Origin: Escherichia phage HildyBeyeler
Sequence record: MZ501074
DNA: 64,000 nt
Direction: 5' to 3' (one strand)
The notes under the pieces were generated by a model. That model made no database searches, had not been told where the DNA came from, and saw only the letters and a list, made by a program, of their open reading frames with translations. A program made the translations under genes and the position numbers. Positions 2,789 to 29,957 of the stretch are shown here, in pieces; position 1 is the first letter of the stretch, and each line of letters opens with the position of its first letter.

Positions 2789-3295
2789 TTACACCTTAAG
2801 TTGTTGTAGGGCTTTACACATTTCAAGATCTGGACTAAATTCTAGCATATAGCTAACAGCCATTAAATCTTGAAGGTTTATTCCAGTTCTACCGTTGACT
2901 ATAACCGTTGGATACTGGTACATCATAGCACCAGCGTCATCCAGCACACACCAATGTTTGAGCTTATGCTTTTCAACGAAGCGAAGAACAGAATTACCCC
3001 TAGATAGCCCACCACCAGTAAAATCCGTTGTACCAAGAAAACGATCAATAAGATCTAATCTGGTCATAATCTGAACGTTCTCCATCTCATTCCTGACAGA
3101 GAACCATGAAGATACCCCAACAATCATTATTGGAGAAGGACGAATAAAGTCCTGAAAAGCCTTGAGAAGCGGCTTAAAAACCCAGTCACTTCCAAAGAAA
3201 ATCTTTTCATCATCAGGTGCATGATGGTGGGAGATGCTCGAATTAAGCACCCCATCGATGTCTAGAAAAATAATTGGAGTATTACTTATTTCCAT
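2789..3295 (-). CDS. HAD-superfamily phosphatase-like protein
   Basis: N-terminal IIFLDIDGVLN (DxDG HAD motif I). Confidence 0.5.
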   Translation of the reverse strand: MEISNTPIIFLDIDGVLNSSISHHHAPDDEKIFFGSDWVFKPLLKAFQDFIRPSPIMIVGVSSWFSVRNEMENVQIMTRLDLIDRFLGTTDFTGGGLSRGNSVLRFVEKHKLKHWCVLDDAGAMMYQYPTVIVNGRTGINLQDLMAVSYMLEFSPDLEMCKALQQLKV

Positions 3296-7423: not shown

Positions 7424-8176
7424 ATGGGAAAAGCACGTCAAAAAAGAGAGAACCGCAATGGTTCAAGAAAGCGTGGCAACAAATATGAGAATAACGTAAT
7501 TCAGGCTGATTTTTCTAATGATTACGCTAACCCAGTTGCTAAATCCCTAGTAGGTAAAAACCGAGAGCAAAAATCATATATCAATATGATCAAGAACAAC
7601 ACAGTGACTGTGGGTATCGGTGAGCCAGGTACAGGTAAAACCTTTATCCCGTCTGTTCTTGCAGCTCAGGAACTCGTAGACATTCACTCAGATATTGAGC
7701 AAGTGATCCTCGTACGTCCTAATGAACCTCTAGGTAAGTCTCTTGGTATGCTTCCTGGTGATCTAGCAGAAAAGCTAGAGCCTTGGTTGGAGCCAATAGC
7801 TGATGGTATGAAATGGGCCATCGGTGATCATGCCTATAGGGGATACGTCGAACGTCAGAAAATTAAATTTTTGGCTATCGAACATGCTCGTGGCAGAACT
7901 TTCAACAACTCCTATGTAATTGTCGATGAAGCTCAGAATATTTCCGTTGAGGCAATGATTTGTCTCCTAACTCGTGTAGGACAAGACTGCCGTTTAATTA
8001 TCTGCGGAGATATAGCTCAGAAAGACATTAAAGGTGACTCAGGTCTAGCACTCCTTATGGAAGTCTATGAGAAATACGAAAATGCCCCCTTCTCAATGAT
8101 CGAATTGATTGATAACGTTCGTTCTGCTGAGTCTAAAGCATTCTACGATATTTTTAAAGACATGGGGAAGGTGTAA
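7424..8176 (+). CDS. phoH: PhoH-like ATPase
   Basis: Walker A GEPGTGKTF and VDEAQN; ATG 7424 with AGGAG 8 nt upstream (track start 7415 is GTG). Confidence 0.8.
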   Translation: MGKARQKRENRNGSRKRGNKYENNVIQADFSNDYANPVAKSLVGKNREQKSYINMIKNNTVTVGIGEPGTGKTFIPSVLAAQELVDIHSDIEQVILVRPNEPLGKSLGMLPGDLAEKLEPWLEPIADGMKWAIGDHAYRGYVERQKIKFLAIEHARGRTFNNSYVIVDEAQNISVEAMICLLTRVGQDCRLIICGDIAQKDIKGDSGLALLMEVYEKYENAPFSMIELIDNVRSAESKAFYDIFKDMGKV

Positions 8177-19987: not shown

Positions 19988-20158
19988 ATGAAAAACTTGA
20001 TCGTCATTGGTGTTAACACTCGCGGTATTCGTACTACGAAAACTGTTAAAACTTCTAACGTTGCTGAGATCACTACGAACCCTAAAAAGTTTGATTTCGC
20101 CAAAGTCTCAGCAGTTATGACAGAACAATCTTTTAACCAAGCGTTAGGAATGAAATAA
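19988..20158 (+). CDS. hypothetical small protein (56 aa)
   Basis: Not in ORF track (under 60 aa); GAGAGGAAG RBS; stop overlaps next ATG as TAATG. Confidence 0.45.
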   Translation: MKNLIVIGVNTRGIRTTKTVKTSNVAEITTNPKKFDFAKVSAVMTEQSFNQALGMK

Positions 20159-20601
20159 TGGGAGAGAATATTTTAGATGTTTTGCGTAGAGCTTTGCAGG
20201 ATTCTAAGTTTAATGGTTCTGATAAAGAAGTCGCTAAAAGCTATCAGACCATAATCGGGGATCTTCAGCGTATTGATAAAGATTTCATCACTTCTGAACA
20301 ATTTGTGTCTTATCTCAAAGCTCAACTAAAAAGCATTAACCAGATGAAAGCTAAACTTCATGGTCAAGATCTTGATAGTTATAGCTTGCAGTCCGCTCAG
20401 TATGAATACATTCTAAATAAGTGGTTGCAGGAGTATCTGCCTCCTCAGTTATCTGATACTGAGATTCGTAAATACTTTGCAGAATTAGTTAAGCTAAACC
20501 CTGGAATTACAAAAGGTATGCTGATGAAAGCGATTAAGGAAGAATTTCCTGGGCGTTATGATGGTGGTACTGCTGCTCAGATTGCTGGCGAATTTAATTA
20601 A
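20158..20601 (+). CDS. hypothetical protein
   Basis: ORF track. Confidence 0.5.
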   Translation: MGENILDVLRRALQDSKFNGSDKEVAKSYQTIIGDLQRIDKDFITSEQFVSYLKAQLKSINQMKAKLHGQDLDSYSLQSAQYEYILNKWLQEYLPPQLSDTEIRKYFAELVKLNPGITKGMLMKAIKEEFPGRYDGGTAAQIAGEFN

Positions 20602-20609
20602 AAATTTAT

Positions 20610-20638
20610 TTGCTAAATGCCTATAAATTCTGTATAAT
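20610..20638 (+). promoter_or_regulatory. sigma70-type promoter
   Basis: TTGCTA-17-TATAAT; drives ORF-free region. Confidence 0.55.
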
Positions 20639-20861
20639 ATATTAATAAATTAGAGAACAGCGGGCCGATTACGCTGAGTGCAGAATCCAAACCGGAGTGC
20701 ATTGAATAGAGTCGGTGGGTTAGTTGTAAAACTAGTACACAGTGGGCGGCAATCCCGGTTAGTGGCTAGAACGTGTAAAATGGGGCGTCTGAAACCTCTC
20801 CCCTAAACTCTTCTCTAGTTTATAAATAGTGGGGTGTGGAAATCACTTATGTAGTAACACT

Positions 20862-20933
20862 GCCGATCTAGTATAAACGGTATTATCAAGCCGTAACTGG
20901 TGGAAGATGTAGGTTCGAATCCTACGATCGGTA
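20862..20933 (+). ncRNA. tRNA-like element (acceptor plus canonical T-arm, poor anticodon arm)
   Basis: GCCGATC/GATCGGT acceptor pairing and GTAGG-TTCGAAT-CCTAC T-arm. Confidence 0.3.
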
Positions 20934-21434
20934 AGAACTGGATAACTGGTGCTTTTAACGTAAAAGCTTCCGAGGTTAGTTGCGCACTGCCTAAACCACG
21001 CGGTAGTTGGTTCCAGACTAACCAACCAGTCTGCTGAATAGTTTTATTACGATTTAACTATGTCCAGGCTAAAGAAGAACTTTAGAAGGTATTCTAGGTG
21101 GTGAAGTTTTTCCTCCATATCGGAGTAGTTTTTCAAGCTACCAACAAAGTGGGAAATGCTGACATGAGAGATGTCACTAATGGTGCACAATAGCACAGGT
21201 AATTCGCGATAACTCCTGTTGAGTAGCAGCAAAAGGCGGGAAGTCATGACCCCAAGCCTAACCGAGTCCTCAATATACCGCAGGACATAACCACTAAGTC
21301 ACCCTGACTTAAACTGGAAAATAATAGACGTTACTGTATTTTGTCTTGAAATACTTAATGAGTGAGACTTATGACTCTCCCGGTATCGTCTGTATTTTTA
21401 AGAGTTTTTACGAGAGTTCTTAAAAATACTTAAA

Positions 21435-21509
21435 CGGGGTGTAGTCTAAGGGAGAGGCAGGAGTCTTCTAAATTCCTTTATGCAGGTTCGAATCCTGTCA
21501 CCTCGGCCA
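21435..21509 (+). tRNA. tRNA-Arg (anticodon TCT)
   Basis: Hand-folded cloverleaf; 7-bp acceptor, loop CTTCTAA, T-loop TTCGAAT, encoded CCA. Confidence 0.7.
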
Positions 21510-23412: not shown

Positions 23413-23490
23413 GGTTCTCAAGCTCATATGGTATGAGCACCCAGCTCATAACTGGAAGGTACGTAGGTTCGAATCCTCGGGGAGCCACCA
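23413..23490 (+). tRNA. tRNA with CAT anticodon (Met or Ile2)
   Basis: Acceptor with two GU pairs, D-arm GCTC/GAGC, loop CTCATAA, CCA. Confidence 0.5.
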
Positions 23491-25280: not shown

Positions 25281-25355
25281 GCACCTTTAGCTGAGATGGA
25301 TTAGCGCTTGCCTGAAGAGCTTGAGAGGTTGGATCGTTACCAACGGGGTGCACCA
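25281..25355 (+). tRNA. tRNA, anticodon uncertain (GAA or CTG)
   Basis: GCACCTT/GGGGTGC acceptor, unusual T-loop ATCGTTA, CCA. Confidence 0.45.
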
Positions 25356-26028: not shown

Positions 26029-26130
26029 AATTCTGTGTAGAGTTAAGTAAACCGGTAGCCAACCAGCTATCATTGCTGACATCGAATTCAGCCACAGATA
26101 CCATTTTCATTAATAACTAAGGAAACAAGC

Positions 26131-27033: not shown

Positions 27034-27155
27034 CAAAATCTCAGTGCAGAACACGGAGCTAGCAATTCGGAAATGCTGACTCATGATAAGCTGCCTATGT
27101 ACTTGCGAAGCGGTCGTGTCCAAGACTCGGACTCTTGCACTGAAAACAATCAAAC

Positions 27156-27276
27156 ATTCTAGCGTGGTTGATGGGGAAACCAGCTTGGCTAGGGCAGAAG
27201 CTCGTTCGATTCGAGTGAAAGAATGGTTCTCGTAAGTCCGCACAAGTGATAACAGGTTCGAGTCCTGTCTAGAATG
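27156..27276 (+). ncRNA. 121-nt tRNA-like structured RNA candidate
   Basis: Perfect 7-bp terminal pairing ATTCTAG/CTAGAAT, T-arm ACAGG-TTCGAGT-CCTGT, internal TTCGATT loop. Confidence 0.35.
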
Positions 27277-27425
27277 ACACTATAAAGTTTACTTATTATG
27301 TAGGTTCCGATAGACCGGCGGGTCTATTCTGGCATTTAAGAGAGGTCTCGCAAACTTCTTTGTCAGCCGTGGGGTTGATAGCCCCCAGGTGGCCTACACA
27401 ATAAGTAAATTTATGAAAAATGTAG

Positions 27426-28264: not shown

Positions 28265-28597
28265 TATATAAATTGATGCGAAAATAGCTGCCTAGATACC
28301 AGGTGTATGACGTCTACACTAGCAGAGCTACCGAAAAAGAGATCCCCAGGATAAACGTCGTAGCAAAATTAGTCTGGTATCCATCAATTTAGTTCACTAA
28401 GGTATTAGCTCGACCTAGGACTGGCTGCCAAAAAGCACGATCCCTACGATTCGGGAGAAGTTCTAGATTAGTCCACTAGATTCAGCGGCAACTGAATAGT
28501 GTATTGGGTTTGCGAGATGACGCAGTTCCTTCCGCTCGAAGCGAAGGTGCTGTAGTTACGCCGAGCTAATAGCCTTAGTAAACTAGAAGGAATATCT
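28265..28597 (+). ncRNA. candidate promoter-driven non-coding RNA region
   Basis: ORF-free (longest ORF 15 codons), several imperfect hairpins, no tRNA T-loop. Confidence 0.35.
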
Positions 28598-29496: not shown

Positions 29497-29591
29497 GGTA
29501 GGTCAATCCAACGGCTGGCGCTGGACTCCGACTTGAAATCGGTTGATCGTAGTGATACGGTGTAAGGGTTCGATCCCCTTACCTACCTCCA
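29497..29591 (+). tRNA. tRNA-Ser (anticodon TGA), class II
   Basis: Perfect GGTAGGT/ACCTACC acceptor, loop CTTGAAA, long variable arm, CCA. Confidence 0.65.
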
Positions 29592-29957
29592 AATCTTGAA
29601 GTATGCCGGAATCGGTAGACGGGGCTGCCTAAAAGGTTTATAGGGAACATCCACTCCCTGCAACATACCTCATAAAGCGGCTGAGATAAATGGTCTATCT
29701 CGTGAAGGTTCAAGTCCTTCTGCTTCTTGATACATCTATGGCTCAAAGTGTAACGGTGCTATTTGATGCTCTTGGTAAGACTTCCCCGACATGCGTTCGG
29801 GAGTAAGCTGCTAAGACTAGAGTAGAAGAGTTTCTGAGAGCCGCCACAATTGAAAATTCGTACTCGTCTTGAGCTGCGTGCAATAGGAGATAACTTGATT
29901 AGTATTCTAGAACATGCTAATTGAGGATGGTTTCGCTAACCCTGCGAGTTTTCAATT

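What the first reader, a model, noticed from the sequence alone, without database searches (positions are those of the whole stretch)
20602..21434. 830-bp ORF-poor interval with an atypical tRNA-like element ahead of tRNA-Arg
Downstream of a strong promoter (20610-20638) only short antisense-like ORFs occur. The element at 20862-20933 has a good acceptor and T-arm but no foldable anticodon arm. The rest may encode additional small RNAs.
Basis: partly seen in the sequence, partly recalled or inferred. Interest (0 to 1): 0.4.

Follow-up and report, generated by a model that had tools for sequence, protein, structure and literature searches.

The report
Known T5 stable RNA "RNAX" homologue
The ORF-poor interval is the counterpart of phage T5's annotated "RNAX", a roughly 790-base non-coding stable RNA of unknown function that folds into several conserved domains, one carrying a tRNA look-alike, so it is a real but already catalogued feature whose job is still open.

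Summary
The window comes from a T5-like phage (Demerecviridae). The interval 20602-21434 matches the T5 reference feature misc_RNA rnaX (T5s08, "stable RNA with unknown functions"). That feature starts at promoter P16-17 and abuts tRNA-Arg. Identity is 93.7% over 632 shared bases.

- The promoter is consensus-like.
- No ORF is conserved.
- The element at 20862-20933 has tRNA-like acceptor, D and T arms. Its "anticodon arm" is only 3-4 bp with a 6-nt loop.

The tRNA-like is not a stray pseudo-tRNA. It sits at the tip of a covariation-supported helix formed by its own two flanks, inside a closed three-way-junction domain.

The RNA as a whole is a string of closed, covarying domains:
- A: includes a pseudoknot and is absent from T5 itself.
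- B: the tRNA-like domain.
- C: variable.
- D: has two palindromic loops.
- E: Y-shaped, followed by a 17-bp terminal hairpin.

The locus is conserved across Demerecviridae. It has no Rfam family and is absent from bacterial genomes. It lies inside the deletion of the T5 st0 mutant record.

Function remains unknown. Its context resembles ROOL and GOLLD, which are large phage RNAs found beside tRNA islands. Self-association through the palindromic loops is only a hypothesis.

The parts
20610..20638 (+). Sigma-70-type promoter, TTGCTA (-35) / 17 nt / TATAAT (-10).
   Evidence: The consensus scan scores it 10/12. It is conserved in relatives out to Klebsiella, Pectobacterium and Proteus phages. 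It aligns with T5 'promoter P 16-17'.
20652..21434 (+). RNAX homologue, one long non-coding RNA. Its 5' end is taken from the T5 annotation; a transcription start near 20645 is expected from the -10 box.
   Evidence: T5 NC_005859 annotates misc_RNA rnaX/T5s08 as 'stable RNA with unknown functions'. Identity is 93.7% over 632 aligned bases. GC is 0.425 against 0.36-0.39 in the flanking ORFs. The plus-strand fold has z = -1.8 against 0.1 for the minus strand.
20651..20817 (+). Domain A, a closed domain. Helices: P0 20651-57/20811-17; P1 20658-62/20672-76; pseudoknot GCCGA 20664-68 / UCGGU 20712-16; V1 stem 20677-82/20698-703; P0' 20717-21/20806-10.
   Evidence: Across 17 sequences, 95.6% of cells are paired against 36-49% for slid controls, 11 of 27 pairs have changes on both sides, and 0/500 shuffles reach the observed value. 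The variable pseudoknot pair shows C-G, A-U and U-A. The domain is absent from T5 itself and is replaced by an HNH ORF in L004, L006 and L012.
20829..20999 (+). Domain B, a three-way junction. Closing helix GUGG 20829-32 / CCAC 20996-99. Helix PB1 20842-55 / 20937-50 carries the tRNA-like arm. Hairpins at 20951-67 and 20974-91.
   Evidence: Across 22 sequences, 88.8% of cells are paired against 33-44% slid, 24 of 47 pairs have changes on both sides, and 0/500 shuffles reach the observed value.
20862..20933 (+). Embedded tRNA-like arm. Acceptor 20862-68/20926-32. D arm 20871-86 with G18G19 at 20879-80. Short arm 20890-92/20899-901 with 6-nt loop 20893-98. T arm 20909-25 with loop UUCGAAU.
   Evidence: Rfam tRNA scores 39 bits with the anticodon arm skipped. 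ARAGORN calls tRNA-Ser(ACU). The T stem and acceptor covary. The body is replaced by other inserts in Sepoy/1-29 and in Proteus phage 1.
21003..21146 (+). Domain C, the variable central region. In this window it has a possible hairpin/pseudoknot, GUUGGUU/AACCAAC plus CAGACU/AGUCUG.
   Evidence: Only the single-sequence fold and inspection of the alignment support it. The region differs or is missing in many relatives. It was not tested by covariation.
21148..21295 (+). Domain D, closed by AGUGG 21148-52 / CCACU 21291-95. Hairpins: D1 21160-76; D2 21196-218 (loop palindrome UCGCGA 21204-09); D3 21234-59 (loop palindrome GUCAUGAC 21243-50); D4 21266-86.
   Evidence: Across 14 sequences, 86.0% of cells are paired against 31-46% slid, and 15 of 27 pairs have changes on both sides. 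The D2 loop keeps a GC-rich palindrome of differing sequence in each lineage.
21295..21311 (+). Conserved mini-hairpin UAAGUCA-CCC-UGACUUA.
   Evidence: It is predicted independently in nearly all variants. The island GTCACCYTGAC...AACTGGAA is conserved. It is duplicated in T5 and L019.
21326..21391 (+). Domain E, a Y-shaped domain closed by AGACG 21326-30 / CGUCU 21387-91, with two inner hairpins separated by CUUAAU.
   Evidence: Four sequence-divergent versions fold on their own into the same architecture.
21392..21429 (+). Terminal 17-bp AU-rich hairpin, 5 nt before tRNA-Arg.
   Evidence: It appears in the folds. It is conserved out to Pectobacterium phages and also occurs in Felix-O1-like phages beside an HNH gene. 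No U-run follows it.
21435..21509 (+). tRNA-Arg(UCU) with encoded CCA. Its 5' processing site defines the RNAX 3' end.
   Evidence: Called by ARAGORN and by Rfam at 49.3 bits. In T5, rnaX ends at the base before tRNA-Arg.

Best explanation
The interval encodes the orthologue of phage T5 rnaX, a single long non-coding stable RNA of about 783-790 nt.

Shown or annotated:
- It is transcribed from a strong sigma-70-type promoter as one unit with the downstream tRNA-Arg.
- It folds into consecutive, independently closed domains kept by compensatory evolution across Demerecviridae.
- The tRNA-like element is one arm of domain B, mounted on a helix made by its own flanks.

Inferred:
- RNase P cutting at the 5' end of tRNA-Arg creates the RNAX 3' end.
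- The 17-bp terminal hairpin protects that end and so makes the RNA stable.
- The paired flanks and the missing CCA keep the tRNA-like arm unprocessed.

Proposed function: the RNA acts as a folded scaffold, not as a message or a decoder. It would bind partners through conserved loops. My estimates are about 0.3 for self-association through the two palindromic loops (as in ROOL/GOLLD cages), about 0.2 for a decoy or platform for tRNA-binding proteins through the tRNA-like elbow, and the remainder unknown. It lies inside the deletion of the T5 st0 mutant record, so it appears dispensable under laboratory conditions.
For: - Identity with T5 rnaX: the annotation is, the alignment, and the 93.7% identity.
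- Synteny: the order YqeY-like ORF, promoter, 700-1300 nt ORF-free interval, tRNA-Arg holds in Tequintavirus, Epseptimavirus, Pantoea AAS21, Pectobacterium My1 and Proteus phage 1. Sugarlandvirus has the RNA after the endolysin gene.
- Spread: 527 phage records match, with identity running down to 60-80%.
- Structure: covariation supports domains A, B and D, and domain E keeps the same architecture in four divergent versions.
- Non-coding.
- Single transcription unit: one promoter and no terminator.
- tRNA core features are kept in alignment A1: U8, A14, G18G19 and the UUCGAAU loop.
- Palindromic loops.
- Dispensability: the st0 deletion removes the locus.
- ROOL and GOLLD context: PMC12286853.
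Against: - No RNA-end or abundance data were available here. 'Stable RNA' rests only on the T5 GenBank annotation.
- The annotated 5' end lies 14 nt after the -10 box, which suggests either processing or an approximate annotation.
- The modules come and go independently: domain A is missing in T5, domain C is variable, and extra inserts of about 300 nt occur in Klebsiella phages. This also fits a string of separate RNAs.
- The tRNA-like body is lost in Sepoy/1-29 and in Proteus phage 1, so tRNA mimicry cannot be the universal function.
- Palindromes of 6 nt or more are not enriched overall (9 against 12.7 in shuffles), and the per-loop tests are weak (P 0.004-0.58).
- The Rfam covariance models (CMs) give no ROOL or GOLLD match.
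Confidence: 0.82

Rival explanations
1. The transcript is only a precursor. The tRNA-like element acts as a processing signal (tRNA punctuation): RNase P and 3' nucleases cut it out, releasing several independent small stable RNAs (domain A, the tRNA-like, domains D and E), each with its own role.
For: The architecture is a string of self-closed domains. Modules are gained, lost or swapped independently between phages. T5 also carries separately annotated small tRNA-like stable RNAs of 73-144 nt, namely RNA1, RNA2 and RNA3. The base before the tRNA-like is a conserved U, and the acceptor, T and D arms are intact in this window.
Against: T5 annotates one 719-nt RNA that spans the tRNA-like. The flanks of the tRNA-like are base-paired with strong covariation, and no CCA is encoded. 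Most relatives carry G.A at pair 1:72 and U.U at pair 5:68 in the acceptor stem. The closing helix of domain B joins sequences on both sides of the tRNA-like, so the pieces would stay together even if nicked.
Confidence: 0.2
2. The interval is decaying DNA: a dead tRNA gene plus a spacer left over from tRNA-cluster shuffling, with no function of its own.
For: The region lies in a mosaic tRNA cluster full of homing endonucleases. The tRNA-like scores lower than true tRNAs, at 29-39 bits against 49-71. The locus is deletable.
Against: Compensatory changes are seen in 50 of the 101 tested pairs. Islands are invariant across subfamilies whose flanking protein is only 30-40% identical. The promoter is conserved. 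T5 annotates a stable RNA here.
Confidence: 0.03
3. The interval encodes one or more small proteins. GenBank records annotate 30-66 aa 'hypothetical proteins' here.
For: ORFs of 31-66 aa exist on both strands. Several records annotate hypothetical proteins in the interval.
Against: No ORF stays open across lineages. Translated similarity appears in several frames and on both strands at the same place. There is no third-position bias, unlike the ORF used as control. Indels are not multiples of three.
Confidence: 0.02
4. The conservation acts at the DNA level, or acts only in cis. The interval could be a landing pad or target region for homing endonucleases, a protein-binding site (the palindromes), or a leader that controls tRNA-Arg expression.
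For: HNH genes insert exactly at module borders. The terminal hairpin recurs beside an HNH gene in Felix-O1-like phages. The conserved palindromes TCGCGA and GTCATGAC could be protein sites.
Against: G.U-tolerant, strand-specific compensatory pairing indicates selection on the RNA. The plus strand folds better than the minus strand. The palindromes sit in the loops of covarying hairpins.
Confidence: 0.05

Closest known systems
Phage T5 RNAX (gene rnaX, locus_tag T5s08, NC_005859.1 40848-41566)
   Same: Same genomic slot (promoter P16-17, RNA, tRNA-Arg, SPFH lipoprotein gene) and same strand logic. Identity is 93.7% over 632 aligned bases, and the tRNA-like, domain D, domain E and the terminal hairpin are shared.
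   Different: The window's RNA carries an extra 5' domain of about 150 nt (domain A, with a pseudoknot) that T5 lacks. It lacks T5's 87-nt duplication around GTCACCTTGAC. The T5 record gives no structure or function.
ROOL and GOLLD large ornate RNAs (Rfam families; cryo-EM nanocages, PMC12286853)
   Same: All are large (over 500 nt), multi-domain, pseudoknotted non-coding RNAs encoded by phages next to tRNA islands, of unknown function and not essential. ROOL and GOLLD assemble through kissing loops. RNAX has two conserved hairpin loops with self-complementary sequences.
   Different: There is no match to any Rfam model even at E up to 10. The hosts differ, since RNAX occurs in virulent enterobacterial siphophages. 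Multimerisation of RNAX is untested, and the palindrome statistics are weak.
tRNA mimics embedded in larger RNAs (bacterial Y RNA YrlA, the tmRNA tRNA-like domain, plant-virus TLS, MALAT1 mascRNA); comparison from general knowledge
   Same: Acceptor, T-arm and D-arm mimicry with a non-decoding 'anticodon' region, carried on a longer RNA whose flanking strands pair.
   Different: ARAGORN makes no tmRNA call and Rfam gives no Y RNA/YrlA or tmRNA hit. The element has no free 3' CCA end. It is internal rather than terminal and is dispensable in some lineages.
The other T5 'stable RNAs of unknown function' (RNAI, RNAIII, RNAIV, RNA1, RNA2, RNA2H, RNA3), and from memory the T4 species 1/2 RNAs
   Same: They are non-tRNA stable RNAs encoded inside a phage tRNA cluster, and some are annotated as tRNA-like. 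Homologues are present in this window.
   Different: They are 73-172 nt, whereas RNAX is 4-10 times larger and multi-domain.

Membership tests
T5 RNAX (rnaX) orthologues | Lies between the promoter after the YqeY-like gene and tRNA-Arg(UCU), on the same strand. | tested here: met
   Window layout; T5 layout; the same layout holds across the family.
T5 RNAX (rnaX) orthologues | Nucleotide homology to T5 rnaX over most of its length. | tested here: met
   93.7% identity over 632 aligned bases, with two large indels: 151 nt present only in the window and 87 nt present only in T5.
T5 RNAX (rnaX) orthologues | Accumulates as a stable RNA in infected cells. | not testable with these tools
   Only the GenBank note 'stable RNA with unknown functions' is available. 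No open-access paper on RNAX was found.
Canonical tRNA (Rfam RF00005) | 7-bp acceptor stem, D arm with G18G19, T arm with a T-psi-C-type loop. | tested here: met
   In the window the acceptor is 7/7 paired including G1.U72, the D stem has 3 bp plus U.U, GG is at 20879-80, and the T stem of 5 bp has loop UUCGAAU. In most relatives acceptor pairs 1:72 and 5:68 are mismatched, in 14/22 and 19/22 sequences.
Canonical tRNA (Rfam RF00005) | 5-bp anticodon stem with a 7-nt loop (U33, anticodon, R37). | tested here: not met
   The stem is 3-4 bp with a 6-nt loop. Relatives have 3-nt loops or a roughly 30-nt arm. The covariance model (CM) skips the arm.
Canonical tRNA (Rfam RF00005) | Free single-stranded 5' leader and a 3' end with discriminator plus CCA (encoded or addable). 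| tested here: not met
   No CCA is encoded (the sequence is ...GGU-AAGA). The 5' and 3' flanks form helix PB1, with 98.9% of cells paired and 7 of 12 pairs compensatory.
Canonical tRNA (Rfam RF00005) | Score above the Rfam gathering threshold. | tested here: met
   39 bits against 29, but through a local alignment. True tRNAs of the window score 46-68 bits.
ROOL / GOLLD RNAs | Match to the family covariance model. | tested here: not met
   No hit at E up to 10 on the interval, nor at E up to 0.05 on seven relatives.
ROOL / GOLLD RNAs | Large phage-encoded RNA next to a tRNA island. | tested here: met
   The RNA is about 790 nt and heads a cluster of 20 tRNA genes. The family description comes from PMC12286853.
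ROOL / GOLLD RNAs | Forms RNA-only homo-oligomeric cages. | not testable with these tools
   Only indirect evidence exists: palindromic loops in D2 and D3.
tmRNA | tRNA-like domain formed by the 5' and 3' ends, plus a tag reading frame. | tested here: not met
   ARAGORN finds no tmRNA and Rfam gives no hit.
Bacterial Y RNA / YrlA | Match to the Y RNA/YrlA models, and a Ro/Rsr-binding stem. | tested here: not met
   No Rfam hit. Whether the PB1 helix resembles the Ro-binding stem was not examined in detail.

The most novel reading that the evidence does not exclude
RNAX would be the founding member of an uncurated class of large, ornate, self-assembling phage RNAs in enterobacterial T5-like phages, a functional analogue of ROOL/GOLLD. 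Two hairpin loops would drive RNA-only multimers. One is an invariant GUCAUGAC. The other is a GC-rich palindrome, like the HIV-1 dimerisation initiation site (DIS), that changes sequence between lineages but stays self-complementary. The assembly would display an optional tRNA-like arm that recruits tRNA-binding factors.
Probability: 0.2. Interest if true: 0.8.

Novelty: already known. Interest (0 to 1): 0.5.

Why it matters
The entity itself is already catalogued. The T5 reference genome lists it as RNAX, a stable RNA of unknown function.

Several things do not appear to be on record, in Rfam or in the open-access literature searched:
- It is a family-wide, covariation-supported, multi-domain structured RNA of 700-1300 nt.
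- It has an embedded tRNA mimic, a pseudoknotted accessory domain, and conserved self-complementary loops.

Large phage RNAs beside tRNA islands, such as ROOL and GOLLD, are a current puzzle: their structures are solved but their function is unknown. T5 is a genetically tractable model phage with a ready-made deletion strain (st0) that lacks the locus. RNAX could therefore make that question testable.

For annotation, the result explains why tRNA finders give erratic calls here and why the 'hypothetical proteins' annotated in this interval should be removed.

Tried and rejected
- Rfam scans at permissive thresholds, on the interval and on seven relatives, found nothing but tRNA.
- Looking for wider distribution:
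  - IMG/VR pattern scans returned mostly contigs of about 104-123 kb, the size of T5-like genomes, plus two short fragments.
  - The metagenome scan returned 6 loci, those examined being T5- or Sugarlandvirus-like.
  - E. coli genomes gave no match.
  - The scan of 185k species genomes gave 42 hits. That is about the number expected by chance for a 33-bit pattern, and none has the other domain-A islands.
- Literature searches for RNAX/rnaX, T5 stable RNAs and T5 transcriptomes found nothing that discusses this RNA.
- RNAalifold proposed pairing CGCGAU...UCCU with GGGAGUCAUG in domain D. I rejected it because it conflicts with two hairpins that covary and because its own pairs never vary.
- Palindrome enrichment as proof of dimerisation was rejected as proof. 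The overall count is not above shuffles and the single-loop P values are weak. It is kept only as a hypothesis.
- The ARAGORN call tRNA-Ser(ACU) was rejected.
- A functional link to the upstream YqeY-like protein was not pursued. The Pfam score is below the cutoff, at 25.2 against 27 bits, and Sugarlandviruses have the RNA without that neighbour.
- No covariance model was built, because only sequences already fetched could have been searched with it.

Full report
**What the window is.** The interval and its flanks are 97-98% identical to T5-like phages such as Escherichia phage OSYSP and T5_ev219. The window carries 21 tRNA genes called by ARAGORN. The finding lies between a YqeY-like ORF (20158-20601; Pfam YqeY 25.2 bits, just under the cutoff) and tRNA-Arg(UCU) at 21435-21509. 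An SPFH/Band_7 gene follows.

**Checking the observation.**
- The 833-bp interval holds only ORFs of 66 aa or less, on both strands.
- A consensus-like promoter, TTGCTA-17-TATAAT, sits at 20610-20638. It is the only plus-strand promoter-like site in the interval, and no plus-strand terminator was found.
- The element at 20862-20933 passes the Rfam tRNA threshold (39 bits against 29) only because the model skips the anticodon arm with an 18-nt local gap.
- ARAGORN forces an implausible tRNA-Ser(ACU) call.
- GenBank records label the same element tRNA-OTHER, Ser, Sec, Leu, Gln or pseudo.
The 'anticodon arm' is a 3-bp stem with a 6-nt loop.

**The decisive result.** In the T5 reference record NC_005859.1 the homologous stretch is annotated as misc_RNA, gene rnaX, locus_tag T5s08, product RNAX, 'stable RNA with unknown functions'. 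It is 719 nt long, begins within 'promoter P 16-17', and ends at the base before tRNA-Arg.
- The window aligns to it with 93.7% identity over 632 bases.
- There are two large differences. The window has about 150 extra nucleotides near the 5' end (domain A), and T5 has an 87-nt duplication.
- T5 annotates seven further small 'stable RNAs of unknown function' in the tRNA cluster. All have homologues in this window.
- The feature is therefore already catalogued. No open-access paper discussing RNAX was found, and Rfam has no family for it.

**Conservation.** 527 phage records match the interval, with identities running from 99% down to 60-80%. The order YqeY-like gene, promoter, a 700-1300 nt ORF-free interval, then tRNA-Arg holds in Tequintavirus, Epseptimavirus, Pantoea phage AAS21, Pectobacterium phage My1 and Proteus phage 1. 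In My1 and Proteus phage 1 the neighbouring protein is only 30-40% identical. Klebsiella Sugarlandviruses carry the RNA after the endolysin gene. Outside these phages nothing was found:
- E. coli genomes gave no match.
- The 42 pattern matches in 185k species genomes are about what chance predicts, and none has the other islands.
- IMG/VR hits are mostly contigs of T5-like genome size, plus two short fragments.

**It is RNA, not protein or junk.**
- No ORF stays open across lineages. Translated similarity shows up in several frames and on both strands at once.
- Substitutions lack codon periodicity, unlike the adjacent ORF, which gives 50:13:135.
- Alignments show invariant single-stranded islands separated by hairpins of variable length and sequence.
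- GC content is raised (0.425 against 0.36-0.39).
- Only the plus strand folds better than shuffled sequence (z = -1.8 against 0.1).

**Structure of domain A (20651-20817).** This domain is closed by helix P0/P0'. It holds hairpin P1, whose loop pairs downstream to form a pseudoknot (GCCGA with UCGGU). That pairing becomes GCAGA/UCUGU in My1 and Proteus phage 1 and GCUGA/UCAGU in Pantoea. Across 17 sequences 95.6% of cells are paired against 36-49% for slid controls, 11 of 27 pairs show changes on both sides, and 0 of 500 shuffles reach this value.

**Structure of domain B (20829-20999).** This is a three-way junction closed by GUGG/CCAC. Its main arm is helix PB1, formed by the sequences immediately 5' and 3' of the tRNA-like (20842-55 with 20937-50). 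Then come a conserved internal loop (AACACU/AAGA) and the tRNA-like cloverleaf. Across 22 sequences 88.8% of cells are paired against 33-44% slid, and 24 of 47 pairs are compensatory.

The tRNA-like keeps U8, A14, G18G19 and a UUCGAAU T-loop. However:
- Most relatives have G.A at pair 1:72 and U.U at pair 5:68.
- No CCA is encoded.
- The 'anticodon' arm varies from a 3-nt loop to a 30-nt arm.
- In Sepoy/1-29 and Proteus phage 1 the whole tRNA-like body is replaced by another insert, while PB1 and the junction persist.

The tRNA-like is thus an optional elaboration of a conserved helix.

**Structure of domains C, D and E.**
- Domain C (21003-21146) is variable and was not tested.
- Domain D (21148-21295) has a closing helix and four hairpins. 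86.0% of cells are paired against 31-46% slid, and 15 of 27 pairs are compensatory.
- Domain E (21326-21391) is a Y-shaped domain. Four sequence-divergent versions fold independently into the same shape.
- A 17-bp hairpin follows (21392-21429), 5 nt before tRNA-Arg.

**Palindromic loops.** The D3 loop contains GUCAUGAC, which is invariant from Tequintavirus to Novosibvirus; My1 has GUCAUGCC. The D2 loop always contains a GC-rich palindrome, but of different sequence in each lineage: UCGCGA, CGCGCG, CGCG, CUCGAG, GUGCGCAC, UCCGCGGA and GUGCAC. This resembles the kissing-loop dimerisation initiation site (DIS) of HIV-1. The statistics are weak: single-loop P values run from 0.004 to 0.58, the lineages are not independent, and palindromes overall are not enriched. 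I treat self-association as a hypothesis.

**How it most likely works.**
- Shown or annotated: it is one promoter-driven unit with tRNA-Arg, it has a conserved multi-domain fold, it is non-coding, and it is confined to Demerecviridae.
- The record of the T5 st0 mutant marks a recombination site for its deletion. That record has only about 190 nt between tRNA-Asp and the 171-nt ORF upstream of the YqeY-like gene, and no rnaX. RNAX therefore appears dispensable.
- Inferred: RNase P cleavage at tRNA-Arg sets the 3' end, the terminal hairpin stabilises the RNA, and the paired flanks keep the tRNA-like arm unprocessed.
- Function is unknown. My committed ranking is a folded scaffold that self-associates through the palindromic loops (about 0.3), a platform or decoy for tRNA-binding proteins (about 0.2), and a precursor of several small RNAs (about 0.2, listed as a rival).

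**Comparison with known systems.** The closest known entity is T5 RNAX itself, and this RNA is a member of that family. By context and style it resembles ROOL and GOLLD, which are phage RNAs near tRNA islands, of unknown function, forming cages held by kissing loops (PMC12286853). It is not a member of either family, because there is no covariance-model match. It fails the defining tests for a canonical tRNA (anticodon arm, free ends) and for tmRNA and Y RNA.

**Mosaicism.** An HNH_3 homing-endonuclease ORF replaces domain A in some Epseptimaviruses. A 510-nt ORF is inserted between RNAX and tRNA-Arg in others. Klebsiella phages and some Epseptimaviruses carry an extra insert of about 300 nt between domains A and B.

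**Verdict.** The feature is already known as T5 RNAX, but its structure and function are uncharacterised. Interest is moderate. The finding itself is ordinary annotation recovery, yet the RNA is a good, tractable candidate for the open question of what large phage RNAs next to tRNA clusters do.

Noticed in passing
window 26031-26103, 27155-27279, 27298-27400, 28403-28574, 29595-29739, 29740-29846, 29851-29956 (+): These are homologues of the seven other T5 'stable RNAs of unknown function': RNA3, RNA2, RNAIV, RNA2H, RNA1, RNAI and RNAIII, at 85-100% identity. None has an Rfam hit at E up to 1.
   Followed up: partly
window 23413-23487, 25281-25352, 29497-29587 (+): Rfam finds tRNA-like matches that ARAGORN did not call, at 38.2 bits, 33.4 bits, and 38.3 bits for a tRNA-Sec-like match. 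By position they are probably counterparts of T5 tRNA-Ile2(CAU), tRNA-Phe and a tRNA-Ser.
   Followed up: no
L004 728-1207, L006 717-1199, L012 1017-1499: In some Epseptimaviruses an HNH_3 homing-endonuclease ORF (36.7 bits) sits exactly where this window has RNAX domain A, and the promoter is kept upstream.
   Followed up: partly
L002 2207-2716, L004 1794-2303, L007 2366-2875 and others: A 510-nt ORF with no Pfam hit is inserted between the RNAX terminal hairpin and tRNA-Arg in many relatives. Its ribosome-binding site follows the hairpin directly.
   Followed up: no
window 21392-21429; L035 1201-1249: The 17-bp AU-rich terminal hairpin of RNAX also occurs, at about 85% identity over 49 nt, in the tRNA clusters of Felix-O1-like phages, 40 nt upstream of an HNH endonuclease gene. 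It may travel with homing-endonuclease cassettes.
   Followed up: partly
window 20158-20601: The ORF upstream of RNAX is annotated variously as tRNA amidotransferase, recombination-related exonuclease, GatB-domain protein or YqeY-like protein. Here only a sub-threshold Pfam YqeY match was found (25.2 against 27 bits, residues 90-142). Its adjacency to RNAX is conserved out to My1 and Proteus phage 1.
   Followed up: partly
L036 (AY692264) 7658-7847: The record for the T5 st0 deletion mutant marks a 'recombination site for st0 deletion mutant'. It carries truncated remnants of T5.068 and the YqeY-like gene, and only about 190 nt lie between tRNA-Asp and the 171-nt ORF. By comparison with the wild-type gene order, the roughly 8-kb deletion removes rnaX, tRNA-Arg, the SPFH gene and several tRNAs.
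   Followed up: yes
L032 about 3215-3290: Proteus phage 1 has a plain hairpin where other phages have the tRNA-like. It carries a separate acceptor/T-arm-like minihelix (UUAUCUG...CUGGGUUCAACUCCCAG...CAGAUAA) earlier in its RNAX-equivalent interval. Rfam does not call it a tRNA at E up to 0.05.
   Followed up: no
phage records MG065692 (Campylobacter phage C13) and the 'Listeria' records: Records named for Campylobacter and Listeria phages carry this T5-like interval, C13 at 95% identity. Mislabelling or contamination is likely.
   Followed up: no
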